DNA from: a virus
Taxonomy: Duplodnaviria; Caudoviricetes
Reading direction: 5' to 3' (one strand)
Virus record (IMG/VR): IMGVR_UViG_2834148589_000001
Location: 7,655-71,654 of that record
DNA: 64,000 nucleotides
Below the pieces are notes generated by a model. The model was not told the origin of the DNA. It worked only from the letters and a program-made list of their open reading frames with translations, and made no database searches. Shown piece after piece: positions 11,363 through 62,890 of this stretch. The translations under genes were made by a program, and so were the position numbers. Position 1 is the first letter of the stretch. Each line of letters starts with the position of its first letter.

Positions 11363-12537
11363 GCAGGCACCCCACGTTCGATCTGCGCGCGCCGGCGCAG
11401 CACGGCCAGCAGCGCCGGCTGGCCGTCAGTCGTGATCCTGTTCTTCTGGTCGCGGATGACTTCGGTCAGCAGCTCGAAGCGGGCCTTGGCCTTAGCGGCA
11501 TCCACGCCGAGATCCAGCGCCAGTTCACCGAGCTTCTGACCCGAGGCCAGACCTTCGACCAGGTCGAGGTCAAGGTCGGTACCGAAAATCGGATCGGCGG
11601 CCAGCGATCCCAGGTGAAACCAGACTTCGCGCTGCAGTCCTCTCAGATCATCCGGGCAGGCCGTGCCCTTGTTCCGGGCGGCACCCTGCGGCGGGATCGA
11701 GGGGGAAGGAGTCACCACCGCCGCAGGGGCCGCTTTCTCGCCGGTCCGGGCCGAGGGAACGTCCCGGACCGGCGCGCGCTCCCGGGGGCCTGCATTCGCG
11801 GGCGCGCTCTTCGGCGCTTCCGCGACCCCGGAAGTCTTGGATTGGGTGTCCCCCGGCGCAGCCTCGGCCGACACGCCTTGCGGCGACCCGATGCACTCGT
11901 CGGCGGGCGTCTTGCCGGGGGACAGAGCGGGGGCGACATCGCTGCCGGAACGGCCCCCGGTTCGAATGGCTTTCGGCGCTGGCGCTTTGGGCTTCGTCAG
12001 CCCAAGGCTGCGGCCACGATAAGATACCGCCGGCACCGGGCGCCCGAGCGCCTCGGCGATCGCGGGCCAGCTGTCGCCCGCCGCGTGCATGCGTCGGATC
12101 GTGTCTTCCTCTTCCTTCAGCCAAGGGCCACGCAGCAGGCCGTCCTTGCCGATCTGGCGCTCGCCAAAGGGCAGGGGCGATGGCGCGGCCGAGACTGTGC
12201 TAGGCGCGGCCGAGGCAGGCGGCGCGGCCGAGACTGTGCTAGGCGCGGCCGAGGCAGGCGGCGCGGCGTCTTCGTCATTTGCGGCCTCAGCCTGAGGCAC
12301 CGGCGCCGCTGGATAGGTCGCGGTCGCCGGCACGTCATCGATCTCGACAACGGTGTCGACCGGCCCGGGTGTACCCCAGAGCGACGGAACACGCAGGGTC
12401 GTGTCGCGGTCGGTCAGCGACACGGTGACCTCCATGCCGGCGCGCTCCAGGACGCCGCCGGCATCGCACAGCTTGCCCATCGCGTCGCGCAGCTCGCGCG
12501 TTTCGGCCAGTGTCATCTGTTTCAGGCTCGGGTGCAT
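11359..12537 (-). CDS. Pro/Ala-rich protein with Myb/GcrA-like HTH
   Basis: WLKEEEDTIRRMHAAGDSWPAIAEALGR; start trimmed to MHPS. Confidence 0.65.
   Translation of the reverse strand: MHPSLKQMTLAETRELRDAMGKLCDAGGVLERAGMEVTVSLTDRDTTLRVPSLWGTPGPVDTVVEIDDVPATATYPAAPVPQAEAANDEDAAPPASAAPSTVSAAPPASAAPSTVSAAPSPLPFGERQIGKDGLLRGPWLKEEEDTIRRMHAAGDSWPAIAEALGRPVPAVSYRGRSLGLTKPKAPAPKAIRTGGRSGSDVAPALSPGKTPADECIGSPQGVSAEAAPGDTQSKTSGVAEAPKSAPANAGPRERAPVRDVPSARTGEKAAPAAVVTPSPSIPPQGAARNKGTACPDDLRGLQREVWFHLGSLAADPIFGTDLDLDLVEGLASGQKLGELALDLGVDAAKAKARFELLTEVIRDQKNRITTDGQPALLAVLRRRAQIERGVPA
12182..12267. repeat. 39-bp exact tandem duplication (AAPPASAAPSTVS x2)
   Basis: 12182-12220 equals 12221-12259, plus a partial third unit. 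Confidence 0.9.
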
Positions 12538-13747: not shown

Positions 13748-14421
13748 TGCACAGTTCAGACGACATAACCGTTCAGGTTAAGGCACTTAGGGAGCGGGCC
13801 GGGCTGTCCGTTCGAAAGCTTGCGATGAGGATGGGGAAATCCTCGTCGGGCTATCTGCACTATGAAAGTCCCGATCGATACAAGGGCGGGCCGTTGCCGG
13901 TCGCTTTCGCCAAGGAGCTCGCCGCGGCGCTGGCCCCAGAGGGCATACCGTCAGAGGACGTTTTCCGCCTTACGGGTTTGCCGGCCGGGAAGGTTGAGCA
14001 GGATCCAGTCGACCTTGTTGATATCTACGATGTTCAGGCAAGCGCAGGCCACGGTGTCGTCGTCTACGACGAGGAAGCTGTTGCGCAGCTCGCATTCCCG
14101 CCAGGCTATCTTTCAAAACTCACGAGCGCCAAGCCGCAGGATCTGAAGATCATCTCGGTTAAAGGCGATTCCATGGTCCCGACGCTGGCAGAGGATGACG
14201 TGGTGATGCTCGATGTCACCAAGCGCGATCTGTCCTACGATGGGCTTTTCGTCATCAAAGACGGCGGCGATGCCTTGCTGGTAAAGCGCATTGGACGTGC
14301 TTCTCAGCGGGGCTTTGTGACAATCATCTCTGACAATCGGACAGTATACCCGTCGGTTGAGAAGGCGTTGGCCGATATCGAGGTGGTCGGACGCGTTGTC
14401 TGGAAAGGCGGAAAGGTTTGA
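13747..14421 (+). CDS. CI-like repressor, HTH + S24 peptidase
   Basis: HTH, ASAG cleavage site, VKGDSM, VKR. Confidence 0.93.
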   Translation: MHSSDDITVQVKALRERAGLSVRKLAMRMGKSSSGYLHYESPDRYKGGPLPVAFAKELAAALAPEGIPSEDVFRLTGLPAGKVEQDPVDLVDIYDVQASAGHGVVVYDEEAVAQLAFPPGYLSKLTSAKPQDLKIISVKGDSMVPTLAEDDVVMLDVTKRDLSYDGLFVIKDGGDALLVKRIGRASQRGFVTIISDNRTVYPSVEKALADIEVVGRVVWKGGKV

Positions 14422-14513
14422 CCGGAAACAGAGCGACCGGTTGAGCAATTTTCTTTTCATCAGCTGAGGCGCGAAATAGCATGTCCGTGTCGGGGAGACA
14501 CAGGAGGTGTAAA

Positions 14514-15578
14514 GTGACTGGTTTTGCTGAAAAGATTGAGATCCTGAGCTCGCGTTCAAAAGTCGCGGAGCGGCAGGCCTTGACGGAAGAGGCGACGAAA
14601 ACCTCTGTCATTCTGCCGTTCATTCAGGCACTCGGATTCGACGTATTCAATCTTGATGAGGTGGTCCCAGAGTTCATCGCGGATGTCGGGGTGAAGAAGG
14701 GAGAAAAGGTTGATTTTGCTATCAAGATTGACGGCAAGATCGCGATGCTCGTTGAGGCGAAGCCCGTCGGCGCGCGGCTTGGCGACACGCAGTTCAGTCA
14801 GCTTTTCCGGTACTTTACGGTGACTGAGGCACGCCTTGCGATCCTTACCAACGGTCGAGAAGCGTGGTTCTTTTCAGACACCGACGAACCCAACAAGATG
14901 GACAAGAAGCCGTTCTTTACGTTCGACTTTCAGAAGTACGACAAGGCCCAGGTCGAAGAGCTGGCGCGATTTCAAAAAGGGCAGTTCGCGATAGATGCGA
15001 TTATCGAAGCCGCTTCTAACCTGAAGTACACGCAGCAAGCTGCATCTTACCTGAAAAAACAGCTCGAAGAGCCCGATGATGACTTTGTGCGCCTCGTCGG
15101 GCGGCAGATTTATGAAGGTTCGATTACGAAGAACGTGGCCGAAGTCCTGCGCCCCGCTATCCAGGCGGCGCTCGATGAAATCATCAGGGACAGAATCCAA
15201 GACAAGCTGAGCATTACCTTCCGCCAAGAAAGCCCGGCTGCCGCGCAGGCGGCGCCCGAAATGGCGGCGGCAGAACCGGAGGACGGTATCGTTACGACAG
15301 ACGAAGAGCGAGAGGCGTTCATGATCGTTCGCGCCATCGCCGCCAAGCATGTACCGATCGAGCGTATTACCCTTAGGGACGCCAAGAGCTACTGCGCGAT
15401 CCTGATGGACGACAATAACCGGAAGCCGGTTTGCCGCCTCTACTTCAACTCTGCAACGACGAAGAATGTCGGGTTCTTCGATGCGAACAAGGCAGAGACA
15501 AAATCTAAGATTACAGTGCCCACCGATCTCTACTTGCATGTTGAAGCGATCGAAGCGGCGGTCAAAGCCTACTCTTAA
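14514..15578 (+). CDS. HsdR-N/PD-(D/E)xK nuclease-domain protein (accessory gene)
   Basis: TEEATK, EKVDFAI...VEAK, LTNG; GTG start with AGGAGG; lower GC. Confidence 0.8.
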   Translation: MTGFAEKIEILSSRSKVAERQALTEEATKTSVILPFIQALGFDVFNLDEVVPEFIADVGVKKGEKVDFAIKIDGKIAMLVEAKPVGARLGDTQFSQLFRYFTVTEARLAILTNGREAWFFSDTDEPNKMDKKPFFTFDFQKYDKAQVEELARFQKGQFAIDAIIEAASNLKYTQQAASYLKKQLEEPDDDFVRLVGRQIYEGSITKNVAEVLRPAIQAALDEIIRDRIQDKLSITFRQESPAAAQAAPEMAAAEPEDGIVTTDEEREAFMIVRAIAAKHVPIERITLRDAKSYCAILMDDNNRKPVCRLYFNSATTKNVGFFDANKAETKSKITVPTDLYLHVEAIEAAVKAYS

Positions 15579-15604
15579 GTTCGTTTTGACATGCCGAGCA
15601 CAAG

Positions 15605-15628
15605 AGCCCTGCCTATGGCGGGGCTTTC
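15605..15628 (+). terminator. Hairpin terminator
   Basis: GAGCCCCTGCC-TAT-GGCGGGGCTTT. Confidence 0.6.
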
Positions 15629-15672
15629 GCGTCTGCACTCTACTGGCTGGATCAGCGTCCGATTCGGTGGGG

Positions 15673-15714
15673 TGTCCGCATATGTCCGCATAATGCGTTG
15701 ACTGAATGTCCGCA
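15673..15714 (+). promoter_or_regulatory. Second operator cluster and early promoter of prophage 1
   Basis: TGTCCGCA at 15673, 15683 and 15707 around TTGACT (15698). Confidence 0.7.
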
Positions 15715-15788
15715 TTGTGCGATCACTCTCCCATCACCCGCCGAAGACGCCACCCGGCAGATCGCGGATCACCTGATGGGAGAGGCCG

Positions 15789-15926
15789 ATGCACGACACC
15801 ACCAACCTGATCGACCGGCTCGGACCCGGCGACGAACGCGCCCGCTGGATCCGCTGGCGCCTGCTCAAGCGCGAATACCGCGCCCGGAACTGCACTTTCC
15901 GCACCACGCGGAGGGCAGCGGCATGA
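15789..15926 (+). CDS. Small hypothetical protein (MHDTTNLIDRL...)
   Basis: GGAGAGG RBS; ATGA coupling to next gene; below ORF-track cutoff. Confidence 0.5.
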   Translation: MHDTTNLIDRLGPGDERARWIRWRLLKREYRARNCTFRTTRRAAA

Positions 15927-16120
15927 CCGGGCAGAACCCCCCGATCCTCAGCCCAGCCGCCGTGACCAAAATCGTGGACGTTGCGATGATCTATTTCGAC
16001 GACGGCGCGCTCTGGACTGCCGCCGCACGCCTCGAAGAGGCTGCGCGGGAAATCCGTAAATGCGCGCAGGCTAAGGATGATGCGCTTGGGCCCCTCCTTA
16101 AGCGGGAGGCGGCACAATGA
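15923..16120 (+). CDS. Hypothetical protein
   Basis: ATGA-coupled on both sides. Confidence 0.55.
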   Translation: MTGQNPPILSPAAVTKIVDVAMIYFDDGALWTAAARLEEAAREIRKCAQAKDDALGPLLKREAAQ

Positions 16121-48185: not shown

Positions 48186-50060
48186 ATGACCAAACCGCAC
48201 TACCGCCGCACCGCCGATGGCCGCACCGTCATGTTGCACGATGGGTATCGCAATCTTGTCGCCAATCTCGGCACCGATCGCGACAAGGCCTATCACGGCA
48301 GCTATGTGCTGAACCTGCTGGACGCGCATTCCCTGCTGACGATCTACCGATCCGCATGGTTGCCTCAGGCCATCGTGGACATCCCGGCCCTGGACGCGGT
48401 GCGCAACTGGCGCTCGTGGCAAGCAAAGCCGGATCAGATCACGCAGCTGGAAGCCGAGGAAAGGCGGCTTGGCCTGCGCGAGAAGACGCGCGATGCCCTC
48501 AAGGCCGCTCGTCTCTACGGCGGTGCCGGCATCCTCATGCTGGACGGCTCGTCTGACCCGACGAAGCCGTTGAACCCCGAGCGGATCAGGAAAGGCGGCC
48601 TGAAGGGGCTTGTCGTCGTGACGCCCATGCAGATCTCGCCGGGCGAGATCGAGCGCGACCCCGAGAGCCCATTCTATGGGCGCCCTGCCTATTACAGCCT
48701 GTCCACCGGCACCAAGGCGGCAGAGCAAATCCACCCCTCCCGTCTTGCTGTCTTCGATGGTGTCCCGGTGCCCGATGCGGCGACCGTGTCGACGGGGTGG
48801 GGCGACAGCGTTCTGCTCGCCGCGATGGACGCGATCAATCACGCCGATGGCTTTGTGGCGAATGTCGCGGCACTGGCGCACGAGGCCAAGATTGACGTGA
48901 TCCACATCCCGCGCCTCATGGAAATGCTGGCGTCGGGGCAGGAGGCTGCAATCACCGAGCGCTTGATGCTCGGCATGAGGAACAAGGGGACGAATGGCGC
49001 CCTGGTGTTGGACGGGGGCGGCACCATTCCCGGCTCGTCCGAGGTGCGCGGCAAGGAGGAATACGAGCAGAAATCCGCGAGCTTCAGCGGCCTCGATGCG
49101 CTCTGGGATCGCTTCATGATGGTGGTCTCGGGCGCAACGAAGCTTCCGATCCCGGTGTCACGGATCTTCGGTCGCTCCGCTGCAGGGATGAATGCCACCG
49201 GCGACGGTGACGAGCGGGTTTACTTCGATGGCGTCAAGGCCATGCAGGAGCTGGAAGTGGGCCCGGCCATGGCAGCGCTGGACGAATGCCTGATCCGCTC
49301 CGCGCTTGGGGCGAGGCCTGCAGAAATCTTCTACGCATGGCGCCCGCTGCGCCAGGAAACCGAGGAAACTAAGGCCAAGGTCTTCAAGATGGTGGCCGAT
49401 GCTGCGCGGGTTCTGGCCGGCCCGAACGGGATGATCCTGCCCGAGGAAGCCATTTCGGAGGCCGTCGCCAATCGCCTGATCGAAGACGGCTCGCTGCCCG
49501 GCCTTGAGGCGGCAATGGAGAAATACAACTGGCTGCCGGATGACAGCGATGGTTCGCCGGGCCAAAGTCCCGATGGCTCAGACAGCGCCGTGGTGACGGA
49601 CAGCGCGCCCCGCACGCTCTACGTCAGCCGCAAGGTTCTTAATGCCGGGGAAATCATCCGCTGGGCCAAGTCGCAGGGCTTTGGCAAGACGCTCAACGCG
49701 TCCGATCTGCATGTGACGGTCGCGTTTAGCCGGACGCCGGTTGACTGGATGGAATGTGGCGAAAGCTGGCAGGGCCGGGTCGAGGTAGAGGCAGGCGGGC
49801 CGAGGCAAATGGAGCGCTTCGGCGAGGCGCGTGTCCTGCTGTTTGCCAGCAACGACCTGCATTGGCGACATGAGCGCTTCAAGGAAGCAGGAGCTTCGTG
49901 GGATCACCCACAATACCAGCCTCACATCACCATCAGCTACGACCCGGAGGCGCCGAGCATCGACGATATCGAGCCTTACCAGGGGCCGATCATCCTCGGG
50001 CCGGAGATCTTCGCGGAGGTCCAAGAAGACTGGGCCGCGCGCATCGAGGAAACAGAATGA
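48186..50060 (+). CDS. Portal protein (DUF1073) fused to C-terminal 2H phosphoesterase (Acb1-like)
   Basis: ARLYGG and GMNATGDGD portal motifs; C-terminal HVTV and HITI motifs. Confidence 0.85.
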   Translation: MTKPHYRRTADGRTVMLHDGYRNLVANLGTDRDKAYHGSYVLNLLDAHSLLTIYRSAWLPQAIVDIPALDAVRNWRSWQAKPDQITQLEAEERRLGLREKTRDALKAARLYGGAGILMLDGSSDPTKPLNPERIRKGGLKGLVVVTPMQISPGEIERDPESPFYGRPAYYSLSTGTKAAEQIHPSRLAVFDGVPVPDAATVSTGWGDSVLLAAMDAINHADGFVANVAALAHEAKIDVIHIPRLMEMLASGQEAAITERLMLGMRNKGTNGALVLDGGGTIPGSSEVRGKEEYEQKSASFSGLDALWDRFMMVVSGATKLPIPVSRIFGRSAAGMNATGDGDERVYFDGVKAMQELEVGPAMAALDECLIRSALGARPAEIFYAWRPLRQETEETKAKVFKMVADAARVLAGPNGMILPEEAISEAVANRLIEDGSLPGLEAAMEKYNWLPDDSDGSPGQSPDGSDSAVVTDSAPRTLYVSRKVLNAGEIIRWAKSQGFGKTLNASDLHVTVAFSRTPVDWMECGESWQGRVEVEAGGPRQMERFGEARVLLFASNDLHWRHERFKEAGASWDHPQYQPHITISYDPEAPSIDDIEPYQGPIILGPEIFAEVQEDWAARIEETE

Positions 50061-54067: not shown

Positions 54068-55069
54068 ATGAGAAATCCCACCGCCGCTGAGCGCGCCGCG
54101 CTTCGCGCCTTCCTCGATCGGCACTTGCCCGAGATCATCGCGGCGTTCGAGCGGGCGGTCTATACGACCCGCGCCCGTGCCGATCTGGCAGAAGTCGAGC
54201 GCCTGTTGCAGTTGGGCGATATCGAAGCGCTGGTCGATCTGCTGCACATCGACGGTCCGATGCTGAACGCGCTGGAGGAGGCGGTGCGCAGTACGTACAT
54301 CGCAGGCGGGCAAAGCGCCGTTGCCGGGATGCAGCAAGGACTGGTCGCGACCTTCGGTTTCAACGGGGGTGACGTGGTTGCCCGGTCTTGGATCGAGCGC
54401 AACGGTGCCAATCTCGTCCAGGGGATCGTTGACGACAGTCGGGATGCGATCCGGCGTTTCGTTACGGTTGCGCTATCCGAAGAGGGCCGGGCAACCCGTT
54501 CCGTGGCGCTCGATATCGTCGGCCGCATCGGGCTTCAGCGCGTCAGGACCGGCGGGATCATCGGCCTGACGGCGGAGCAGACCGAATACGCGATCCGGGC
54601 GAGGGAAGAACTGACGCGGCTGGACCCGCACTATTTCACTCGGACGCGCCGGGACGCACGGTTCGACAGCTTGGTGCGCCGTGCCATGCGCGAAGGGCGG
54701 CGTCTGTCCGTCGCGGAGATCGATCGCATCGTGGGCAGATACAAAGACCGGCTGCTGCAGCGTCGGGGCGAGACCATCGCCCGGGATCAGGTCAACACCG
54801 CGCGCGCGGCCAGCCGCCGCGAGGCTATGCGCCAGATCCTCGAACGCCCGGACGTCGAGACCATCACCAAGCGCTGGCAGCTCGGGTTCCCGAAGGAGCA
54901 CAGGCCCAACCACGTCGCGTTGAACGGGCAGGTCAAGAATTACGACGAGGACTTTGACTTCGGGGGCGGCATCACGGCACACGGCCCCCATGATGACAGC
55001 CTCCCGGCCAGCGAGAAGCTCGGCTGCCAATGCACCATCGTCTACCGAGTGAAGCTGAAGAAGAGTTAG
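54068..55069 (+). CDS. Head morphogenesis protein (Mu gpF/SPP1 gp7-like)
   Basis: RGETIAR, KRW..RPNH..LNGQ, GCQC. Confidence 0.8.
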   Translation: MRNPTAAERAALRAFLDRHLPEIIAAFERAVYTTRARADLAEVERLLQLGDIEALVDLLHIDGPMLNALEEAVRSTYIAGGQSAVAGMQQGLVATFGFNGGDVVARSWIERNGANLVQGIVDDSRDAIRRFVTVALSEEGRATRSVALDIVGRIGLQRVRTGGIIGLTAEQTEYAIRAREELTRLDPHYFTRTRRDARFDSLVRRAMREGRRLSVAEIDRIVGRYKDRLLQRRGETIARDQVNTARAASRREAMRQILERPDVETITKRWQLGFPKEHRPNHVALNGQVKNYDEDFDFGGGITAHGPHDDSLPASEKLGCQCTIVYRVKLKKS

Positions 55070-55359
55070 GAAAGAGAAAGGCAGTAGGCTGAGAGGGCGC
55101 TCGCTAGCGCCTGCAACCCCTCGGCTCGGCTCTGGCGAAGATCTTCTGCGGCTTGGCGCGCTGCGATATTCTCTGGCGAGCTGTCTCGACTGCTAAGGCG
55201 AAGCAAGGTTCTGTCAGCTACAGACAGGTCGTCCTCAACCTCAGTCTGAACATCCCTGAGAATATTGAGGCATTGCAACTGAGTGAGCTGACCGCTGGCA
55301 GGGGTCGATGCACAAACAGTCAAGGCTGAAATTGTGACGCTGAGAAGCGGGTGAGGCAT
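55066..55359 (-). CDS. Exported accessory protein
   Basis: Signal-peptide-like N-terminus, GGAGG RBS, lower GC. Confidence 0.5.
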   Translation of the reverse strand: MPHPLLSVTISALTVCASTPASGQLTQLQCLNILRDVQTEVEDDLSVADRTLLRLSSRDSSPENIAARQAAEDLRQSRAEGLQALASALSAYCLSLS

Positions 55360-55425
55360 ACTTCCTCCAGAAATGGATAGGATCAGACCTTCGTCTGCAC
55401 GCTGGACGTGAGTCAAGCGCTCAGG

Positions 55426-55725
55426 TCAGTCGTCGGAGGGGGGTGGTGGAAACAGCACTTTCTCGATTTCGTCGGAAACGCGCTTGATGACAAGGTCATA
55501 GACTTCTCGTTGCTTGTCGGTTCGCGCACCCCCCCTGAGGCGCTGAGCTTGCTCCAGCAGCGCTATTAAGCGCTCAAAATCTTCGTCCGGCGCAGGGTAT
55601 CTCTCTTCGAGAACCTGCACGATCAGTGAGTTAACAGAAGCTTCCCCTGCAGCCTCTTTCACACGCTCATAGAGCGGCGTAGGCAGCCGAATCGTGTAGC
55701 GGGTGTAGTCGTCTTGCTTGGCCAT
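55426..55725 (-). CDS. Arc/Mnt-like ribbon-helix-helix repressor
   Basis: YTIRLPTPLYERVKEAA...SVNSLIVQVLE. Confidence 0.8.
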   Translation of the reverse strand: MAKQDDYTRYTIRLPTPLYERVKEAAGEASVNSLIVQVLEERYPAPDEDFERLIALLEQAQRLRGGARTDKQREVYDLVIKRVSDEIEKVLFPPPPSDD

Positions 55726-55739
55726 GGCGGAAGGTGTGG

Positions 55740-55813
55740 CACTAAAATGGTGAAGGCCACAAGAAAAGACTTGCGCACCAAATTGGTGAAATGTATCGTT
55801 CACTAAATTGGTG
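55740..55813. promoter_or_regulatory. Three palindromic operators and rightward promoter
   Basis: CACYAAAWTGGTG at 55740, 55776 and 55801; TTGCGC(55771)-17-TATCGT(55794). Confidence 0.8.
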
Positions 55814-55824
55814 AAGGGAGCGAC

Positions 55825-55998
55825 ATGACAGGCCAAGACGAAGAAATGGTGCGACTGACCATCTCGGTGCCCGCAAGCCTGCGGAAAATGCTAAAGGTGA
55901 GCGCTGCACAGAACGACCGGAGCTTCAGCGGGGAGATCATCCACTGTCTGAAGCGCGGATCCGGCTGGAGCGAAGAGGCCCAGCCCGCGCAAAAGTAA
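55825..55998 (+). CDS. Arc family repressor (57 aa)
   Basis: RLTISVPASLRKMLKVSAAQNDRSFSGEII; GGGAG RBS; below ORF-track cutoff. Confidence 0.8.
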   Translation: MTGQDEEMVRLTISVPASLRKMLKVSAAQNDRSFSGEIIHCLKRGSGWSEEAQPAQK

Positions 55999-56064
55999 AG
56001 GCCACCAGGGCGGCAACCCCGATGGCCTTTGATGAAACCCAACAGTCTACGAAAGGTTCTGTGC

Positions 56065-56490
56065 ATGAATATGCCAGTTCAGAGCGCCCATTTCAATGGG
56101 CACAACGCTACACAGGCGAAACTGTCTCGCCGCCGGCTTCTGACTGCCGCGCCCGCTGCTGGGCTCGCCGCCATGATGGCTGGGGCTACGCCAGTCGAAG
56201 CGGACAACCAGTCGCCTCTGCGCGAGATCTATTGGCAGTGGCAGGAGGCCAAGGCCACCTTCAACGCACTGCCTGACGATATCAGCGATGGGGCGGAAGG
56301 TGACGCGGCGTACCAGCGTATCGTCCACTTCGAGGAACAGGCCTCGGCATACGAACCGCAGACGCTCGACGACATGCTGATGAAGGTGATCTTCGCCGAC
56401 AACAACGGCGACATGAGGACCGGCAGCATATTTCAGGCCGCTCTGGTGGCGCAGGCCTACGAAATGGCCGGGATCGAGGCGGCAGCCTGA
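56065..56490 (+). CDS. Protein with twin-arginine-like N-terminus
   Basis: LSRRRLLTAAPAAGLAAMMAG..VEA. Confidence 0.6.
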   Translation: MNMPVQSAHFNGHNATQAKLSRRRLLTAAPAAGLAAMMAGATPVEADNQSPLREIYWQWQEAKATFNALPDDISDGAEGDAAYQRIVHFEEQASAYEPQTLDDMLMKVIFADNNGDMRTGSIFQAALVAQAYEMAGIEAAA

Positions 56491-56629
56491 TCAACTGAGC
56501 ATTTTACGAAATCTCCCCGCGACCAAGGGGGATAAGCGCGGCAGCGAGCTTCTGTGGCCTCGGTGTCGCTATGCGACCCATCACGCGCTTGGTGGCTTGG
56601 TCGGCCGAGCGCCACAGGAGAACCAGACT

Positions 56630-57385
56630 ATGGCTACGAAGAACACCAGTGTTTCACTGCAGATCGACGCCCTGAAGCAGGGGCGCGTGACGCTCAAGAT
56701 GATCGGCACCACCGGCCTTTACTTCAACGCGATGAGCGCCAAGGCGAAACGGACGCTGCTGATCGGCGGGGGCAAGAAAACCGCTGCGGAAAAGCGAGAA
56801 TTGAAGCACGATCCGCAGACCGAGTATCGTGACAGCGTCTATCGCCTGCCAGACGGCCCGACGCTGCTGGGCTTCCCGGCGCCGGGTGTGAAGGGCGCGA
56901 TGGCGACAGCGGCGCTGGAAACGCCGGGGGTCACGAAAAGCAGCGTTCAGAGACTGATCTTCCTGCCCGAACAGAAGATCAAAGTCTGGGGGCGCCCCTA
57001 TCTGAAATGCGACGTGGTCCGCAGCGCCGACATGGCGCGGACGCCGGACGTTCGGACCCGGGCTTTCCTTCCGCGCTGGTGCGCCGAGGTCGATATCGCC
57101 TTTATCACGCCGACGCTGAGCATCCACAGCATCATTTCGCTGCTGTCCAACGCGGGCGTGATCGTCGGAATCGGCGATTTCCGGCAGGAGAAGGGTCGTG
57201 GCAGCTACGGGACTTTCGCCGTGGCGACCGAGGATCTGGGCGACTGGCAGGAGACGTGGGACGATATCACGGCAGAGGGCCGCGATGTTCAGGAGGACGC
57301 GCTGGCGAACCCGGCGGCGGCTGACGATGACACCGCCGAGCTGCTGGCGATGCTTGAGGAAGAACGCATCCGGCGCGCCGCCTGA
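56630..57385 (+). CDS. Stand-alone Cas7/RAMP-like protein (VIPR-like effector candidate)
   Basis: N-terminal beta strand MIGTTGLYFN, FPAPGVKGAM helix, C-terminal Gly-rich loop GIGDFRQEKGRGSYGTF; AGGAG RBS. Confidence 0.75.
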   Translation: MATKNTSVSLQIDALKQGRVTLKMIGTTGLYFNAMSAKAKRTLLIGGGKKTAAEKRELKHDPQTEYRDSVYRLPDGPTLLGFPAPGVKGAMATAALETPGVTKSSVQRLIFLPEQKIKVWGRPYLKCDVVRSADMARTPDVRTRAFLPRWCAEVDIAFITPTLSIHSIISLLSNAGVIVGIGDFRQEKGRGSYGTFAVATEDLGDWQETWDDITAEGRDVQEDALANPAAADDDTAELLAMLEEERIRRAA

Positions 57386-57433
57386 TGCTCTTCGGCGCGG
57401 GCGGCCCAGGTCGCCCGGCCACGGTCACGGAAA

Positions 57434-57626
57434 GGCGGTCACGATTAGGCAAGGTCTGGCGTGGAAGCGCGAGGCGGGGCGAGGCTTGGCGGTCATGGCA
57501 TGGCAACGCCTGGGAAGTCGCGGCTCGGCCTGTCGGTCTAGGTGTGTTTAGACAAAGCGAGGCTCGGCGTGGCCAGTCGGTCATGGTTAGGAATGGCGAA
57601 GCTCGGCAAGCTTTGTCCTGGCGGTC
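57434..57626 (+). ncRNA. GGY/NN pentamer array 1 (4 units; putative guide RNAs)
   Basis: GKCGGTC delimiters at 57434, 57488, 57532, 57576 and 57620; unbroken 5-nt phase between them. Confidence 0.8.
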
Positions 57627-57645
57627 AACCGCAAAGGAGAAGCAA

Positions 57646-58131
57646 ATGGCTTTCAAATGGAAAGAACGGCAGGCGATCATCGACGGTTATCTGGCCGAGA
57701 CTGGTCGTAACCAATTTCACCCTGCCGAGTTTATCGACTGGTTGGGCGGAAAGCCCGATCACGAGGCGTATCCTTGGTTCTTCGGGACCGATGATGCCAC
57801 GGCGGCGCGGGAGCATCGCATCTCGCTCGCCCGGCGCATGGCTTCCGGCCTGCGTCTGACGGTGAAGGTCGAGGAGACGAAGTACACCGTTGCTTCGGTC
57901 GCGGTGCGCGAGTTCCCGGCCTACGTTTCGCCGGTTGCCGGTCGCAAGGCCGGTGGCGGCTACGAGCCCTTCGATCCGAAGGACAAGGCCGCGATGGCGG
58001 AGCTTCGTCGCCAAGGTGTCGTCGCGCTGCAATCGTGGTTGCGCCGGTACGCTGGTGCGTTCGCAGATGTCGATCTGTCGGCAATCGAGGAAATCGCGGC
58101 TGAAGATAGCCGTGTGGCGCTGTCCGCATAG
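57646..58131 (+). CDS. Partner protein between the two arrays
   Basis: AAGGAG RBS at end of array 1; HEAYPWFFGTDDATAAREHRISLAR. Confidence 0.8.
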   Translation: MAFKWKERQAIIDGYLAETGRNQFHPAEFIDWLGGKPDHEAYPWFFGTDDATAAREHRISLARRMASGLRLTVKVEETKYTVASVAVREFPAYVSPVAGRKAGGGYEPFDPKDKAAMAELRRQGVVALQSWLRRYAGAFADVDLSAIEEIAAEDSRVALSA

Positions 58132-58150
58132 GGCGCGCTGGTCAAGGTAA

Positions 58151-58294
58151 GGCGGTCGAGGCGGGGCTCTGCATGGCAAGGTGTGTCACGGCGAGGCGGT
58201 CTAGGTGAGGCGAGACTAGGCAAGGCGTGATGCGGCTGGGTCTGGCGGTCTAGGCCCGTTTGGGCGCGCTTAGGATGGACACGGCGGGGCGGTC
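58151..58294 (+). ncRNA. GGY/NN pentamer array 2 (3 units; putative guide RNAs)
   Basis: GGCGGTC at 58151, 58195, 58244 and 58288; same grammar as array 1. Confidence 0.8.
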
Positions 58295-58321
58295 AAGCGT
58301 TCCTCTGAGGGGTGTTCGAAA

Positions 58322-58349
58322 GATCGGCCTGCCATGTGGTGGGCCGATC
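58322..58349 (+). terminator. Hairpin closing the cassette
   Basis: GATCGGCCTGCC-ATGT-GGTGGGCCGATC; no U-tract. Confidence 0.45.
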
Positions 58350-58364
58350 CGCATGGAGAACCGC

Positions 58365-58802
58365 ATGGCACCACGCACAAACTTGTCGGTTGCCCTCGCG
58401 GCTTACCGTGACGAGAACAAGCCGAAAATTCGGTTCGTATACAATGAAGCAGTGCAGGACGTGATCGAGGCGGCGCAGACACCGCAGCGCGCGATCTCAG
58501 CGGGGGCGGAGACGTTCGAGGTCGGAAAGATCCCGGTGGCCAGCACCGATCTGATCAACTCGCTGCACCTCGGCGCCACCAAGATCGGCGGAGACTTCAC
58601 CGCGGTTATCGGCCTGATCGAGCCGGGCACGATCCAGACCTTCGAATGGCAGCAGCCCTATGCAGCCCGGATCGAGTTCGGCTTTTCGGGCACCGACGAG
58701 TTGGGGCGCGAATATGAGCAAGCCGGGCGCTTTTTCGTCGGCGCAAACGCGGTCCGGTTCCCTGAGTTCGTGGAAAAACACAAGCGCGAGGTCGGCCTGT
58801 GA
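58365..58802 (+). CDS. HK97 gp10-like neck/tail-completion protein
   Basis: IPVASTDLINS, PYAARIEFG, AGRFFV; position before tail terminator. Confidence 0.75.
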   Translation: MAPRTNLSVALAAYRDENKPKIRFVYNEAVQDVIEAAQTPQRAISAGAETFEVGKIPVASTDLINSLHLGATKIGGDFTAVIGLIEPGTIQTFEWQQPYAARIEFGFSGTDELGREYEQAGRFFVGANAVRFPEFVEKHKREVGL

Positions 58803-59194
58803 CGATGACGCCGAACGAGGCCTTCACCATCATCGCGGCGCGGCTTCGTGCCATGCCCGACTGCCCGCCGGTGGTCTGGCCAAACACGAACTTCGAACCG
58901 GTGCTGCCCCGGCTGATTTTCCAGCAGCCCGTTCGTGGCGCTAATGACCCGACCCTCGGCGGAGGCTACAAGGTTCGAACGGGTCGCGCCGTTGTCATCG
59001 TCGCAACCGCCTTGGTTGACGATTTCGGGGACGCAGCGGACACCTTGGCGACCCAAATCGAGGCGCTGTTTCCGACCGGCCCGCTGCCGACGCAACCGGC
59101 CGGGGTGCTGACCATCGTGCAGTCCCAGGTTCTCGGCGGCTACCAGACAGACACCGATTGGCGCGTTCCGGTTCAGATCGACTGGCGCGCCTAA
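58799..59194 (+). CDS. Tail terminator-like protein
   Basis: VWPN..F, LATQIEALF, WRVPVQIDW. Confidence 0.75.
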   Translation: MTMTPNEAFTIIAARLRAMPDCPPVVWPNTNFEPVLPRLIFQQPVRGANDPTLGGGYKVRTGRAVVIVATALVDDFGDAADTLATQIEALFPTGPLPTQPAGVLTIVQSQVLGGYQTDTDWRVPVQIDWRA

Positions 59195-60354: not shown

Positions 60355-60719
60355 CGCTTTTCGCGCACCAGCTTGGGTTCCTGCACTCGATCCCGACCCA
60401 CTGGAAAATGACCCGCCTCGAGTTTGCCAAGGAACGCCAGCACGACCTGATGCTGCCCGAGGTCGGATTTCGGGCTGATCTGATCAACGACATGATCGCA
60501 CTGAACCCGGTTCGCCGGATCGGCCCGAAGCAACCCGGATGGGATGGTCTCAGGTCGGTCGATTGGCCGGAAATGCAAGCCTATGCCGCCTCGGTCGGGG
60601 CGGATTGGTGCGCCTGGGATTTCCAGACCGTCTACAGCATGTCGGCGGCGTTCCTGACCGGCCTTCGAGAGGGCGCTGATCCTCTCTGCATCCCGCCCAC
60701 TGAAAGAGCCTCACGATGA
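60327..60719 (+). CDS. Tail chaperone -1 frameshift extension (gpT-like)
   Basis: Open -1 frame through to tape-measure start; VDWPEMQAY. Confidence 0.65.
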   Translation, partial: FFGQAARKLTLFAHQLGFLHSIPTHWKMTRLEFAKERQHDLMLPEVGFRADLINDMIALNPVRRIGPKQPGWDGLRSVDWPEMQAYAASVGADWCAWDFQTVYSMSAAFLTGLREGADPLCIPPTERASR

Positions 60720-62890
60720 CCACGCAAGCCGGTTACATCGCGCTGATCGCGGACAGCTCCTCCTTGCCGAAGGCGGAGAAGAACCTCGACAGCCTTGCTG
60801 CCACCGGCGAGCGCACCGAGCGGCGCGTCGTCGGGTCCATGGATAATGTGTCCGGCAGCATCAACCGCGTCGGCATGTCCTCGGGACAACACACGATGGC
60901 GATGCGGAACCTCGCGTTCCAGCTTAACCAGATCGGCCAGCAAGGCGCTGTCACCGGCAACTATCTCGGCGCCCTCGCCATCCAGATCCCGGACATCCTG
61001 TCGTCCTTCGGCAGCTTGCCGCTGGTCCTTGCCGGTGGCGCGATTGCGGTCGGTGCCTCGCTGGTCCCGTCGCTGATCAGCGGAAGTAATGCCACGGCTG
61101 ACTTCGATGATGCCCTCGATGAACTCGACGCGCAGATCCGCTCGGTGCAAGACGCGATCGAGGGGCTTTCAACATCGCGCCTGCAGGAACTCTTTGGGGA
61201 TGCCTCTGAGGATGCAAGGGCGCTAGCCCAATCCGGTCTGGAGATCAGCCTCCGCCGGCAAGCCGACGCTGCGCGCGCCTTGACCGAGGCGTTGCTGTCG
61301 ACTGACAACGGCTTCGGCCTCAGGAACAGGGCGCGCGGGGAGATCCTCGGTTCCGGCTTGGATGCGTCTACCGACGAACTGAACCGTCTATCCCGCGCCA
61401 TGCAGGACCTCGCCGCCGCTGATGGTATCGATCAACAGGTGGAGGCCGCAGAAGCTTTCCGCGACTTGATCGTGAGCACCTTCGGGCCGGTCGAGGGTAT
61501 GACGAGCAGGCAATTTGAGCTGTTCACGATGGTGGCGGATACCGAGCGCGCATGGCGCCGGGTTCGAGCTTCTGTCGATGACGCGGAGAGCGGCCAAAGC
61601 GCCGCCGCGCGCCGTCAGATCGCGGATGCCAGGACGATCATCGAGCAGAACGAGGCGAACGCCGAACTGATGAGGGCCGTCGCCACTTATGGCGAAGATA
61701 GCGCGGAAGCCGATGCCGTGCGTCGTGACCAGGCACTGGCAGCGACCGAGGCCTATATCGACCAGCACGAACTGACCGGCGATATTGCTGAGCAGTTGCG
61801 CGCATCGGCGTCCGCTGCGTTTGATGCCGAGGTCGGCGCGCGTGCCGCAGCGGAAGGCCTTTCGGAGGCAGAGCGCGCGGCCCGTGCCCTCGCCAATGCG
61901 ATGGCCGCTGCGGCTGGGTTCTCTGTCGGCATCGAAGGGCAGATCGCAACCGTTCGGGCCCAGATCGACGCTTTGGGGCGCGGACAGGATGCCGCAACCG
62001 CCGGGCGGATCGAGAGCCTGCGGCAGGAAGCTTCGGCGCGTCGGGATGCGGTTCTGGAAGCGGCAGCGGGTGACGATGAAGCCCGCATGGCGGCCGAGGA
62101 GCGGTATCAGGCCGATCTGCAGAACATCGGCATCCTCGGCGAGGAGATGGAGGCGCTGCGCGCGCTCCAGCAGGTCCAGCGCCAGGGTGGCGCGGCGTCC
62201 CGTCGCGAGCACAATGAGGCCATGCGCGAAGCTGAGCGCGTCATCCATGACATCCGTACCGAAACGGAGCAGTACGCGGCGGAAGTTGCAGACCTGAATG
62301 AGCTTCTTGAGCAAGGTTACCTCACCCAAGAGCAGCATGCCCGGGCCGTGGCGATGGTGCGCGATGAATACCTTGGCCTTGAAGAAATTCAGGACACGCT
62401 GAAGGACGCAATCCTCGACTTCGCTGAAGGCGGGGAGGACGCGATGGAGAACCTAGGGCGTGCGATCCGTCGGGCGGCCCTAGAGGCGCTACTGTTCGGC
62501 GAAGGGCCACTGGCGAATTTCTTCGGCGGAGGCGGGCTTCTGAGCGGGTTGCTTGGCAGCATCACCGGGGGTCTTCGAACTGGTGGCGGGAAAGCGACTG
62601 GCGGCAGTGTGACCACCGGCACCATCTATCCAGTCAACGAGAACACGACCAACACGGAATGGTTCGCTCCAGCGGTAGCCGGCACCATCCTGACCGACGG
62701 CCAAGCGCAAGGCGCAGTTCGCGGTGGCGGCTCGTCCGTGGTGAACATCAACGTCAATGTCGACGGCGCCAACGGCGACCAGCACGTCATGGATCTCGTC
62801 GCGCAGGGCGTCCGAACCGGCCTCAGCCAGTACGACCGCGCGCTTCCCGTCCGAATGAAGCAGATCCAAGCTAACCCGAGGAGGCGCTGA
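60716..62890 (+). CDS. Tape measure protein
   Basis: NLAFQLNQIGQQ, Ala-rich helical body, C-terminal KATGG..YPVNE. Confidence 0.9.
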   Translation: MTTQAGYIALIADSSSLPKAEKNLDSLAATGERTERRVVGSMDNVSGSINRVGMSSGQHTMAMRNLAFQLNQIGQQGAVTGNYLGALAIQIPDILSSFGSLPLVLAGGAIAVGASLVPSLISGSNATADFDDALDELDAQIRSVQDAIEGLSTSRLQELFGDASEDARALAQSGLEISLRRQADAARALTEALLSTDNGFGLRNRARGEILGSGLDASTDELNRLSRAMQDLAAADGIDQQVEAAEAFRDLIVSTFGPVEGMTSRQFELFTMVADTERAWRRVRASVDDAESGQSAAARRQIADARTIIEQNEANAELMRAVATYGEDSAEADAVRRDQALAATEAYIDQHELTGDIAEQLRASASAAFDAEVGARAAAEGLSEAERAARALANAMAAAAGFSVGIEGQIATVRAQIDALGRGQDAATAGRIESLRQEASARRDAVLEAAAGDDEARMAAEERYQADLQNIGILGEEMEALRALQQVQRQGGAASRREHNEAMREAERVIHDIRTETEQYAAEVADLNELLEQGYLTQEQHARAVAMVRDEYLGLEEIQDTLKDAILDFAEGGEDAMENLGRAIRRAALEALLFGEGPLANFFGGGGLLSGLLGSITGGLRTGGGKATGGSVTTGTIYPVNENTTNTEWFAPAVAGTILTDGQAQGAVRGGGSSVVNINVNVDGANGDQHVMDLVAQGVRTGLSQYDRALPVRMKQIQANPRRR

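What the first reader, a model, noticed from the sequence alone, without database searches (positions are those of the whole stretch)
56630..58294. Prophage-encoded RNA-guided system candidate: solo Cas7/RAMP-like gene, partner gene and two GGY/NN arrays
Seen: a 251-aa ORF with RAMP/Cas7 hallmarks (N-terminal beta strand, FPAPGVKGAM helix, terminal Gly-rich loop GIGDFRQEKGRGSYGTF), then a patterned non-coding array, a 161-aa ORF and a second array of the same grammar. No other recognisable cas gene or canonical CRISPR array is in the window. Established: Cas7/RAMP proteins polymerise along guide RNA with a fixed nucleotide periodicity. Inference: one subunit binds each 5-nt unit, gripping the constant GGY and presenting the variable NN for target pairing. 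With no evident nuclease it would probably silence rather than cut, most likely competing phages. From memory this resembles the recently described VIPR (GGY/NN guide) systems; that identification was not verified here.
Basis: partly seen in the sequence, partly recalled or inferred. Interest (0 to 1): 0.96.

Follow-up and report, generated by a model that had tools for sequence, protein, structure and literature searches.

The report
Prophage VIPR RNA-guided silencing locus
A resident virus in this bacterium carries a recently described kind of RNA-guided gene silencer (VIPR), and one of its seven short guides matches the tail gene of related rival viruses.

Summary

- **Vipr protein (56630-57385):** a minimal RAMP protein. 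The AlphaFold2 model has pLDDT 95.6. The best fold matches are Csm3/Cmr4/Cas7 chains (Foldseek E 1e-6; VIA Z 10.3). A family profile hits the solved SUSP1 Vipr protein at E 2.7e-8, with the thumb Arg and the G-loop GxGD(W/F)R aligned.
- **Accessory gene (57646-58131):** it follows vipr in 10 of 17 related loci. Its fold is unknown.
- **Arrays:** both intergenic tracts are staggered vrRNA arrays holding seven guides of 9-11 five-base units. Each reads GTC-NN, then (GGY-NN)n, then GGC-GG. Neighbouring guides share one G, as a legend in the VIPR paper describes.
- **Target of guide G:** read by the published rule (NN, skip one base), guide G matched 23 IMG/VR loci exactly. Of these, 15 fall on one conserved peptide (PVQYAQGY) of the major tail protein of phages related to this prophage. 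All 15 are in codon register with varied wobble bases.
- **Self-targeting:** the prophage's own tail gene differs at that site, and the own genome has no match of 15/16 or better.
- **Other guides:** no convincing target was found for the other six.

Verdict: a new member of a known kind, with a concrete predicted target.

The parts
56630..57385 (+). vipr gene: 251-aa minimal RAMP protein. RRM core, thumb and G-loop occupy residues ~13-208, followed by a C-terminal helical extension (204-250).
   Evidence: AF2 model pLDDT 95.6. Foldseek top hits are Csm3 chains, E 1.1e-6, with 70 hits at E<=1e-3. VIA Z 10.3 to 9g9a_D, rmsd 4.1 over 150 residues, and the top 20 rows are all CRISPR RAMPs. Family profile vs PDB: 36pp_D 'SUSP1 Vipr protein', E 2.7e-8. 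phrog_4652 E 8e-12; no Pfam family.
57423..57437 (+). Leader stub of array 1 (GGTCAC GGAAA GGC, then the junction). The same stub opens arrays in relatives.
   Evidence: Parse: the window, L001 and L002 begin their arrays with GGTCAC GGWAA GGC. In the whole genome the stub pattern occurs only at the two arrays.
57438..57624 (+). Array 1: four staggered vrRNA units. A 57438-57492 has 11 units; B 57492-57536, C 57536-57580 and D 57580-57624 have 9 each. Neighbouring units share one G. The array closes with GGTCAA at 57623.
   Evidence: The 1-nt overlap matches the legend of Fig. S18 of the VIPR preprint.
57646..58131 (+). vap-like accessory gene: 161 aa, mostly helical, fold not recognised.
   Evidence: 360 homologues. 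Lies directly after vipr in 10 of 17 related loci. AF2 pLDDT 74. No Foldseek match at E<=1e-3; best VIA Z 4.9. Weak DEP-like (winged-helix) motif, E 0.029. phrog_15946 E 1.1e-3. The nearest Atlas clusters are viral hypothetical proteins.
58140..58154 (+). Leader stub of array 2 (GGTCAA GGTAA GGC, then the junction).
58155..58296 (+). Array 2: three staggered vrRNA units. E 58155-58199 has 9 units, F 58199-58248 has 10, G 58248-58292 has 9. The array closes with GGTCAA at 58291.
   Evidence: Guide G has the supported natural target.
58434..58456 (+). Near-match (14 of 16) of guide C inside the prophage's own neck gene, in codon register with the skipped base at wobble. It is the only match of 14/16 or better for guide C in the genome.
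   Evidence: The homologous site in four related phages scores 13/16. No exact target in a related phage was found.
55426..55998 (.). Two divergent small ribbon-helix-helix-like genes upstream of the cassette (55426-55836 on the minus strand, 55825-55998 on the plus strand). They are possible regulators of the cargo block 55066-58300, which lies between the head and tail genes.
   Evidence: Pfam Arc E 0.0097 and FitA-like RHH E 9.7e-4, both below the curated cut-offs. A sigma70-like site lies at 55719-55748 (+). These genes were not found next to vipr in the 17 related loci.

Best explanation
This is a VIPR (Viral Interference Programmable Repeat) system carried as cargo between the head and tail genes of a lambdoid temperate prophage.

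**Proposed mechanism (inferred from the published SUSP1 work).**
- The operon vipr - array 1 - vap - array 2 is transcribed.
- The arrays yield seven vrRNAs of 45-55 nt.
- Each 5-nt unit binds one Vipr protomer, which grips the G-G-pyrimidine triplet and exposes the two variable bases.
- The filament then binds double-stranded DNA that matches NN-x-NN-x... and blocks its transcription.

**What is shown here by computation.**
- The protein is a Vipr relative with a RAMP fold.
- The arrays have the staggered, 1-nt-overlapping architecture.
- Related loci keep the same layout with entirely different NN strings.
- Guide G matches codon positions 1-2 of the most conserved peptide (PVQYAQGY) of the major tail protein of phages that share this prophage's head-tail module.
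- The prophage's own gene and genome are spared.

**Likely role.** The prophage silences a late structural gene of related superinfecting or co-resident phages. That would be exclusion of kin competitors without cutting.
For: **(1) Protein.**
- AF2 model pLDDT 95.6, pTM 0.89.
- All of the top fold matches are CRISPR RAMP backbone subunits.
- A profile of 73 family members hits PDB 36pp_D 'SUSP1 Vipr protein' at E 2.7e-8; the single sequence gives E 0.092.
- In those alignments R144, D183, F184 and R185 here align with SUSP1 R138, D177, W178 and R179. The cryo-EM preprint names those residues as the GG contacts, and mutation of R138 or D177 abolishes silencing.
- R185, G180 and G182 are invariant, and R144 and D183 nearly so, in 73 sequences.

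**(2) Arrays.** The grammar and its statistics are. The 1-nt overlap agrees with the paper's 'staggered arrays' legend.

**(3) Conservation of the layout.**
- 14 of 15 examined related loci have periodic arrays after vipr and/or after the next gene.
- vap follows vipr in 10 of 17.
- 50 further vrRNAs parsed in L001-L016 have 301 of 398 inner triplets GGY and near-uniform NN.

**(4) Context.** PHROG matches give a CI-like repressor, CII-like activator, DnaB, RusA, antiterminator, terminase, portal, protease, capsid, adaptor, head morphogenesis, neck, tail terminator, major tail and distal tail protein. The 724-aa ORF at 60716-62890 was read as a tape measure by position and was not scanned.

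**(5) Target of guide G.**
- Four phage loci chosen only by neck-protein similarity all carry a 15/16 match inside their major tail gene.
- An exact scan of IMG/VR gave 23 loci. Fifteen of them (13 distinct sequences) encode GDPVQYAQGY at the site, antisense to the guide. NN falls on codon positions 1-2, and every synonymous third base varies.
- 60 permutations of the NN order gave 0 matches with one mismatch or fewer in the same 170 kb.
- GDPV.YAQGY is the longest block conserved at 90% or more in the 19 tail proteins.
- These phages share adaptor, head-morphogenesis, neck, tail-terminator and tape-measure genes with the window at 26-60% identity.
- The own tail protein is 24% identical and reads KVVYFGGL at the site. 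The own genome has no match of 15/16 or better for any guide.
Against: - No expression data: no sequencing run could be listed, so transcription, processing and binding of the arrays are not shown.
- Only one of seven guides has a convincing target.
  - Guides A and F have 0 exact matches in viral and metagenome contigs.
  - Guide A has 0 matches with two mismatches or fewer in 301 genomes of the family.
  - The exact hits of guides B, C, D and E scatter over unrelated, mostly AT-rich contigs.
- Guide G is not enriched in cellular genomes. It gave 2 matches with one mismatch or fewer in 121 related genomes, against 18 (my count) for the reversed control pattern.
- The 15 exact hits were selected by the guide itself. 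Only the four neck-selected loci, which are homologous to each other, are an independent test.
- Only 60% of inner triplets are GGY. The strict four-unit YNNGG criterion is met only in array 1.
- There is no invariant 3' tail like that of the SUSP1 clade, so how units are cut or nucleated is unknown.
- DNA (rather than RNA) targeting and silencing are taken from work on SUSP1 and P. fulva. They were not tested for this clade.
- The Foldseek PDB copy predates the Vipr entries, so no direct structural superposition on Vipr was possible.
Confidence: 0.87

Rival explanations
1. Same machinery, but the target is RNA. The Vipr-vrRNA filament binds the tail-protein mRNA of the competitor, as type III Cas7 backbones bind RNA, and does not bind double-stranded DNA.
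For: Guide G has the sense of the antisense strand of the tail gene in all 19 loci, so the vrRNA would be complementary to the mRNA. The closest solved folds are RNA-targeting Csm3/Cmr4 subunits.
Against: The published VIPR work reports dsDNA binding in vitro, silencing from either strand and natural targets on both strands, and a DNA triplex structure (abstract). One guide on one strand cannot discriminate. No catalytic RNase residues were looked for or found.
Confidence: 0.07
2. Array 1 is coding sequence. The open frame 57385-58131 (248 aa) would give the accessory protein a Gly/Arg/Trp-rich N-terminal extension, and the 5-nt periodicity would be a by-product.
For: the ORF listing shows an uninterrupted frame from 57385 through array 1 into the 161-aa ORF.
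Against: - A 5-nt period cannot be a codon feature.
- A Shine-Dalgarno-like AAAGGAGA sits just before the ATG at 57646.
- Nearly all of the best 120 homologues listed are 156-175 aa and start at the same Met; two are 214-215 aa.
- Array lengths differ among relatives.
- Array 2 has the same grammar outside any such frame.
Confidence: 0.01
3. The cassette is a decayed or non-functional VIPR remnant. The degenerate triplets (40% are not GGY) mean that most units no longer load Vipr, and the guide G match is a relic.
For: 31 of 52 inner triplets are GGY here, against 301 of 398 in relatives. Six of seven guides have no target found.
Against: - Both genes are intact and close to a large family: 1607 and 360 homologues.
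- Junctions and stubs are exact.
- The paper itself notes frequent internal degeneracy of vrRNAs.
- In guide G, the NN that follow degenerate triplets (GTT, GCT, GGA, GAC) still match the target.
Confidence: 0.05

Closest known systems
VIPR systems (Vipr protein + vrRNA; bioRxiv 10.64898/2026.04.26.720920, .720927 and 10.64898/2026.10.15.759431). I read the Results and methods sections 18, 20 and 27 of the first, the outline and section 5 of the second, and the abstract and passages of the third.
   Same: - A minimal RAMP protein with aligned GG-binding residues.
- A two-gene vipr-vap locus flanked by GGY/NN arrays.
- A prophage location, with no cas genes or CRISPR array.
- A staggered array with 1-nt overlap, as in the Fig. 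S18 legend.
- A natural target that obeys the 1-nt-skip rule, with the skipped base at wobble, in a competing mobile element.
- No self-target.
   Different: - The experimentally studied systems (SUSP1, P. fulva; type II) have ~100-nt vrRNAs of 9-16 units with an invariant structured 3' tail. Here the units are 45-55 nt, have no tail, and are separated only by a phase-slipping GGC|GGTC junction.
- The paper says the staggered type was not among the architectures confirmed by sRNA-seq.
- Vipr here is 251 aa with a C-terminal helical extension, against 202 aa for SUSP1 Vipr.
- The predicted target is a major tail protein gene of related phages. The published targets are a satellite recombinase and prophage lysis-lysogeny regulators.
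- The type (I-VII) and vap class could not be assigned, because the supplements are closed.
Type III/IV/I CRISPR-Cas backbone subunits (Csm3, Cmr4, Cas7)
   Same: The RRM-thumb-G-loop fold (Foldseek E 1e-6; VIA Z 8-10). By analogy, polymerisation along a guide with fixed periodicity.
   Different: There are no CRISPR repeats or spacers, no Cas1 in the genome, and no other cas genes nearby. The period is 5 nt rather than 6 nt, and pairing is non-contiguous. Sequence identity to these chains is 9-15%.
Prophage superinfection-exclusion and repressor-type immunity modules (cargo genes in late operons)
   Same: A cargo block inserted between head and tail genes of a temperate phage. Its predicted effect is on rival phages.
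   Different: Specificity comes from RNA guides that read a coding sequence. It does not come from a protein that recognises an operator or a surface receptor.

Membership tests
VIPR | Vipr protein: a stand-alone minimal RAMP (single RRM, thumb, G-loop) related to the Vipr family | tested here: met
   Fold matches. Profile hit to the solved SUSP1 Vipr, E 2.7e-8 over profile 149-196 / chain 138-185. Only the C-terminal third aligns by sequence.
VIPR | Residues that grip the GG of each repeat (SUSP1 R138, D177, W178, R179) | tested here: met
   These align with R144, D183, F184 and R185 (roles). W is replaced by F. The residues are invariant or nearly so in 73 relatives. SUSP1 H17, E71 and M72 could not be aligned.
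VIPR | vrRNA: tandem 5-nt units with constant GGY and variable NN, next to vipr (the paper's search rule is four or more YNNGG units) | tested here: met
   Two strict runs of 4 units in array 1. The full grammar holds in both arrays, with 31 of 52 inner triplets GGY. Array 2 meets only the relaxed grammar. The paper allows for internal degeneracy.
VIPR | Locus without CRISPR array or other cas genes; viral or proviral setting | tested here: met
VIPR | Accessory gene (vap) beside vipr | tested here: inconclusive
   A conserved neighbour is present (10 of 17 loci). It could not be compared with vap1-6, because no sequences were available and the supplements are closed. Its fold is not recognised. 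There is a weak winged-helix-like hint.
VIPR | Targets follow the 1-nt-skip rule, are wobble-aligned, and lie in competing mobile elements, with no self-target | tested here: met
   Met for guide G only. No match of 15/16 or better in the own genome. No supported target for the other six guides.
VIPR | vrRNAs expressed and co-purifying with Vipr; programmable repression | not testable with these tools
   No run could be listed. This needs wet-lab work.
VIPR type II (SUSP1 / P. fulva clade) | Invariant structured 3' tail after each repeat tract; ~100-nt vrRNAs | tested here: not met
   Units abut with a 1-nt overlap and have no tail. This locus is therefore not filed under type II. It matches the 'staggered array' architecture instead.
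CRISPR-Cas (class 1) | CRISPR repeat-spacer array plus cas operon (Cas1/Cas2 adaptation, large subunit, Cas5/Cas6) | tested here: not met
   No CRISPR-like repeat in the window. No Cas1 in the 100%-complete genome. A single RAMP gene in the genome.

The most novel reading that the evidence does not exclude
In this clade the guides may be punctuated only by the phase-slipping GGC|GGTC junction, because the cassette has no tail, no ribozyme and no nuclease. Two mechanisms would fit. Either Vipr itself (a RAMP, like Cas6) cuts at the junction, or the array is never cut and works as one long multi-guide filament whose register resets at each junction. Together with the guide G result, the cassette would then be a mobile 'kin-exclusion' module that silences late structural genes of the carrier phage's own relatives.
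Probability: 0.15. Interest if true: 0.7.

Novelty: new member of a known kind. Interest (0 to 1): 0.45.

Why it matters
VIPR was described only months ago, and it has been tested in two enterobacterial/pseudomonad clades. This locus adds three things.

- **A large alphaproteobacterial prophage clade.** 1607 homologues were found in one search and 2039 50%-identity cluster representatives in another. This clade uses the staggered array form, which the paper lists among its architectures but not among those confirmed by sRNA-seq.
- **A concrete, testable natural target.** The most conserved peptide of a rival phage's major tail protein is read at codon positions 1-2, so synonymous change cannot give escape. 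This extends the published 'wobble-aligned' logic from satellite recombinases and regulators to a late structural gene of kin phages.
- **Information on guide boundaries.** The first GTC-NN unit pairs with the target and the terminal GGC-GG unit does not.

It does not change the field's picture. It is a well-supported new example.

Tried and rejected
**Target searches that found nothing convincing.**
- Own genome: no match of 15/16 or better for any guide.
- Guides A and F: 0 exact matches in viral contigs and in metagenome contigs.
- Guide A: 0 matches with two mismatches or fewer in 301 genomes of the family.
- Guide C: 7 exact viral hits. Six are in contigs of GC 0.31-0.40. One (L023, GC 0.68) lies in-frame in a tail gene after the tape measure of an unrelated phage. 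I judged these to be chance.
- Guides E, B and D: 29, 22 and 54 exact hits with no convergence on one gene. Guide E has five near-identical contigs in a giant tail-fibre-like ORF unrelated to the window. This is left unresolved.
- Guide G in 121 related cellular genomes: 2 hits against 18 (my count) for the reversed control, so no enrichment.

**Accessory protein.** No Pfam family. No Foldseek match at E<=1e-3. VIA best Z 4.9, not meaningful. The nearest Atlas clusters are viral hypothetical proteins.

**RNA families.** The only Rfam hit in 55000-59000 is a sub-threshold ctRNA_pGA1 match outside the arrays. No hammerhead or other ribozyme was found.

**Promoters.** No sigma70-like site was found directly upstream of either array.

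**Sequencing runs.** No RNA holder was listed; none was listed at all.

**Flanking genes.** The window's head-morphogenesis, neck and tail genes were not found in any of the 17 vipr loci, so the cassette sits in different phage backgrounds.

**Literature limits.** The paper's supplements are closed. I could not see the type assignment or the vap families, or check whether this locus is among the 664 representative loci. In print: a full-text search shows 0 occurrences of 'tail protein', 'Rhodobacterales' or 'Alphaproteobacteria' in the main texts of the three VIPR preprints.
Full report
**What is there.**
The interval holds two genes on the + strand. The first is 56630-57385 (251 aa) and the second is 57646-58131 (161 aa). 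Each is followed by a non-coding tract. In both tracts GGY triplets recur every 5 nt, but the phase slips by -1 at regular points.

Splitting at GGTC shows an exact grammar. Each unit reads GTC-NN, then (GGY-NN)n, then GGC-GG, and the last G of one unit is the first G of the next. This gives:
- four units in array 1: 57438-57492, 57492-57536, 57536-57580 and 57580-57624, of 11, 9, 9 and 9 five-base units;
- three units in array 2: 58155-58199, 58199-58248 and 58248-58292, of 9, 10 and 9 units.

Both arrays open with a short stub (GGTCAC GGAAA GGC and GGTCAA GGTAA GGC) and close with GGTCAA.

**Is it more than chance?**
- Period-5 power of G is highest in the whole window at array 1: 13.6, against a median of 0.73 and a 99th percentile of 5.21. 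With 45-nt windows, 50 of the 65 top-0.1% positions fall in the two arrays.
- The junction motif occurs 24 times, against 12.5 +/- 3.4 in shuffles, and 8 of the 24 lie in the arrays.
- In the 4.49-Mb genome, only these seven units are chained. The stubs occur nowhere else.
- Against this, the published strict rule of four or more perfect YNNGG units picks up only two runs, both in array 1. That count alone is not significant.
- Only 31 of 52 inner triplets are GGY. Position 1 is G in 90% and position 3 is a pyrimidine in 92%, while the NN positions are near uniform.

**The first protein is a Vipr-type RAMP.**
- Pfam finds nothing. PHROGs gives an unannotated family (phrog_4652, E 8e-12).
- The family is large: 1607 proteins at E<=1e-3 in one search and 2039 50%-identity cluster representatives in another. 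Almost all are unnamed. One is a hypothetical protein of Mameliella alba.
- With an alignment of 73 members, AlphaFold2 gives pLDDT 95.6 and pTM 0.89.
- Foldseek returns 70 PDB matches at E<=1e-3, led by Csm3 chains at E 1.1e-6. The exhaustive VIA search gives Z 10.3 (rmsd 4.1, 150 residues) to a Csm3 chain. Its top 20 rows are all CRISPR RAMP subunits.
- The family profile hits PDB 36pp_D, 'SUSP1 Vipr protein', at E 2.7e-8. The single sequence gives E 0.092.
- In these alignments R144, D183, F184 and R185 stand opposite SUSP1 R138, D177, W178 and R179. The cryo-EM preprint describes these as the residues that recognise the two guanines, and alanine substitution of R138 or D177 abolishes silencing. 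They are invariant or nearly so in the family.
- Residues 204-250 form an extra helical extension. It is absent from the 202-aa SUSP1 protein by length. I did not test its role.

**The second protein.**
- It has 360 homologues and follows vipr directly in 10 of 17 related loci. Four of the other seven loci are cut short, and in three (L008, L015, L016) no homologue was found.
- Its model is helical with a disordered middle (pLDDT 74) and matches no known fold.
- A weak DEP-like motif (E 0.029) and Z~4 similarities of residues 1-70 to DNA-binding domains hint at a winged helix. That would fit the paper's statement that several vap genes are predicted DNA binders. It is only a hint.

**Relatives keep the layout but not the guides.**
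- Of 15 loci examined, 14 have long 5-nt-periodic tracts just after vipr and/or after the next gene. L009 and L017 were left out as truncated. The fifteenth (L013) ends 88 bp after the gene.
- The same junction grammar parses 50 further vrRNAs in L001-L016, mostly of 9-10 units. There, 301 of 398 inner triplets are GGY and the NN are near uniform.
- The stub is shared by the window, L001 and L002.
- The window's flanking phage genes are not found in any of these loci, so the cassette moves between phage backgrounds.

**Setting.**
The window is a lambdoid temperate prophage. PHROG matches give the following:
- CI-like repressor, CII-like activator, DnaB, primosomal protein, RusA and antiterminator;
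- small and large terminase, portal, protease, major head protein, adaptor and head morphogenesis;
- the cargo block at about 55066-58300;
- neck, tail terminator, major tail protein and distal tail protein.

The 724-aa ORF at 60716-62890 was read as a tape measure by position; it was not scanned.

The genome has no Cas1 and a single vipr. The window has no CRISPR-like repeat.

**What is known.**
VIPR systems were reported in 2026. Vipr plus vrRNAs of alternating GGY/NN recognise dsDNA by pairing NN and skipping one base. They silence transcription and are aimed at competing mobile elements. The paper lists seven types and mentions 'staggered arrays with overlapping vrRNAs'. Its Fig. S18 legend says the vrRNAs derive from 1-nt overlapping positions, which is exactly the junction seen here. 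A later preprint shows that guides read near-invariant codon positions and skip wobble.

**Targets.**
I applied the published rule to the seven guides, dropping the constant terminal GG.
- The own genome has nothing at 15/16 or better. Guide C has one 14/16 match, in register, in the prophage's own neck gene at 58434.
- I then fetched phages by similarity to the neck protein (4 loci) and scanned them with all guides. Guide G matched 15/16 in 4 of 4, always inside the major tail protein gene at the peptide GDPVEYAQGY. It lies on the antisense strand, with NN on codon positions 1-2.
- An exact scan of IMG/VR with guide G's pattern gave 23 loci. Fifteen (13 distinct sequences; GC 0.46-0.66) encode GDPVQYAQGY at the site in the same register. 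The third bases vary freely (Pro CCN, Val GTN, Gln CAR, Tyr TAY, Ala GCN, Gly GGN). The other 8 have stop codons or unrelated contexts.
- In the 19 loci (170 kb), 60 permutations of the NN order gave no match with one mismatch or fewer.
- These phages share adaptor, head-morphogenesis, neck, tail-terminator and tape-measure genes with the window at 26-60% identity. None has vipr in the fetched part. GDPV.YAQGY is the longest block conserved at 90% or more in their tail proteins.
- The window's own tail protein is a 24%-identical homologue that reads KVVYFGGL at that site.
- The match also tells something about the guide. The NN of the first (GTC) unit pairs with the target, as do the NN after degenerate triplets. 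The terminal GGC-GG does not.

**What did not work.**
- Guides A and F have no exact match in viral or metagenome contigs. Guide A has none with two mismatches or fewer in 301 genomes of the family.
- The exact hits of guides B, C, D and E (22, 7, 54 and 29) scatter over unrelated contigs.
- Guide G is not enriched in 121 related cellular genomes: 2 matches against 18 for the reversed control.
- The 15 exact hits were selected by the guide. The independent evidence is the four neck-selected loci, the shared register and the convergence on one peptide.
- No sequencing run could be listed, so expression and processing are untested.

**Mechanism and odds.**
- That the locus is a VIPR system: about 0.9.
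- That guide G directs it to the tail gene of related phages: about 0.7.
- That the outcome is transcriptional silencing of DNA rather than RNA binding: taken from the published systems. The RNA alternative is about 0.07, because the guide is complementary to the mRNA.
- How staggered units are separated is open. The cassette has no ribozyme, no tail and no recognisable nuclease.

**Verdict.**
This is a new member of a known kind. It is useful as a clean example of the staggered architecture with a concrete natural target, but it is not a new system.

Noticed in passing
window 49620-50040 (portal gene 48186-50060): The portal protein has a C-terminal domain (residues 479-617) that matches phrog_755, annotated 'RNA ligase', at E 8.5e-21. 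The rest of the protein matches a normal portal family. I did not test that reading.
   Followed up: partly
window 55426-55998: Two divergent small genes with weak ribbon-helix-helix matches (Arc E 0.0097; FitA-like RHH E 9.7e-4; both below cut-off). They sit at the start of the cargo block, with a sigma70-like site at 55719-55748. They may regulate the VIPR operon. They do not accompany vipr in the 17 related loci.
   Followed up: partly
window 58365-58457: The first 31 codons of the neck gene have GC3 0.61, against 0.84 for the rest (Fisher p 0.011, with the boundary chosen post hoc). The guide C near-match lies at the end of this stretch. The accessory gene shows a similar but weaker dip (0.58 vs 0.75). 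The 'recoded, guide-resistant gene start' idea (e1-6203976) remains untested.
   Followed up: partly
window 58322-58349: An 8-bp inverted repeat (GATCGGCC ... GGCCGATC, 12-nt loop) lies between the end of array 2 and the neck gene's ribosome-binding site. It is visible. It might end the VIPR transcript. It has no T-run and was not reported by the terminator scan.
   Followed up: no
window 55985-56039 (-): A sub-threshold Rfam match to ctRNA_pGA1 (27.5 bits, gathering score 45, E 0.015). It overlaps a terminator-like hairpin on the minus strand at 56020-55998.
   Followed up: no
window 12182-12267: A perfect 39-nt tandem repeat of 2.2 copies (score 172), outside the prophage late region.
   Followed up: no
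window 14001-16000: G+C drops locally to 0.563, against 0.63-0.69 elsewhere.
   Followed up: no
phage records H1-H25: Distant Vipr relatives (29-34% identity over ~180 residues) are encoded by 25 Mycobacterium and 5 Gordonia phage records. All are annotated 'hypothetical protein'. I did not check whether they have adjacent GGY/NN arrays.
   Followed up: no
L054, L057, L063, L068, L077: Guide E matches exactly in five near-identical viral contigs (GC 0.54-0.59). The site lies inside a very large tail-fibre-like ORF (peptide DGSINVTE) of a phage unrelated to the window. This could be chance or a second target class.
   Followed up: partly
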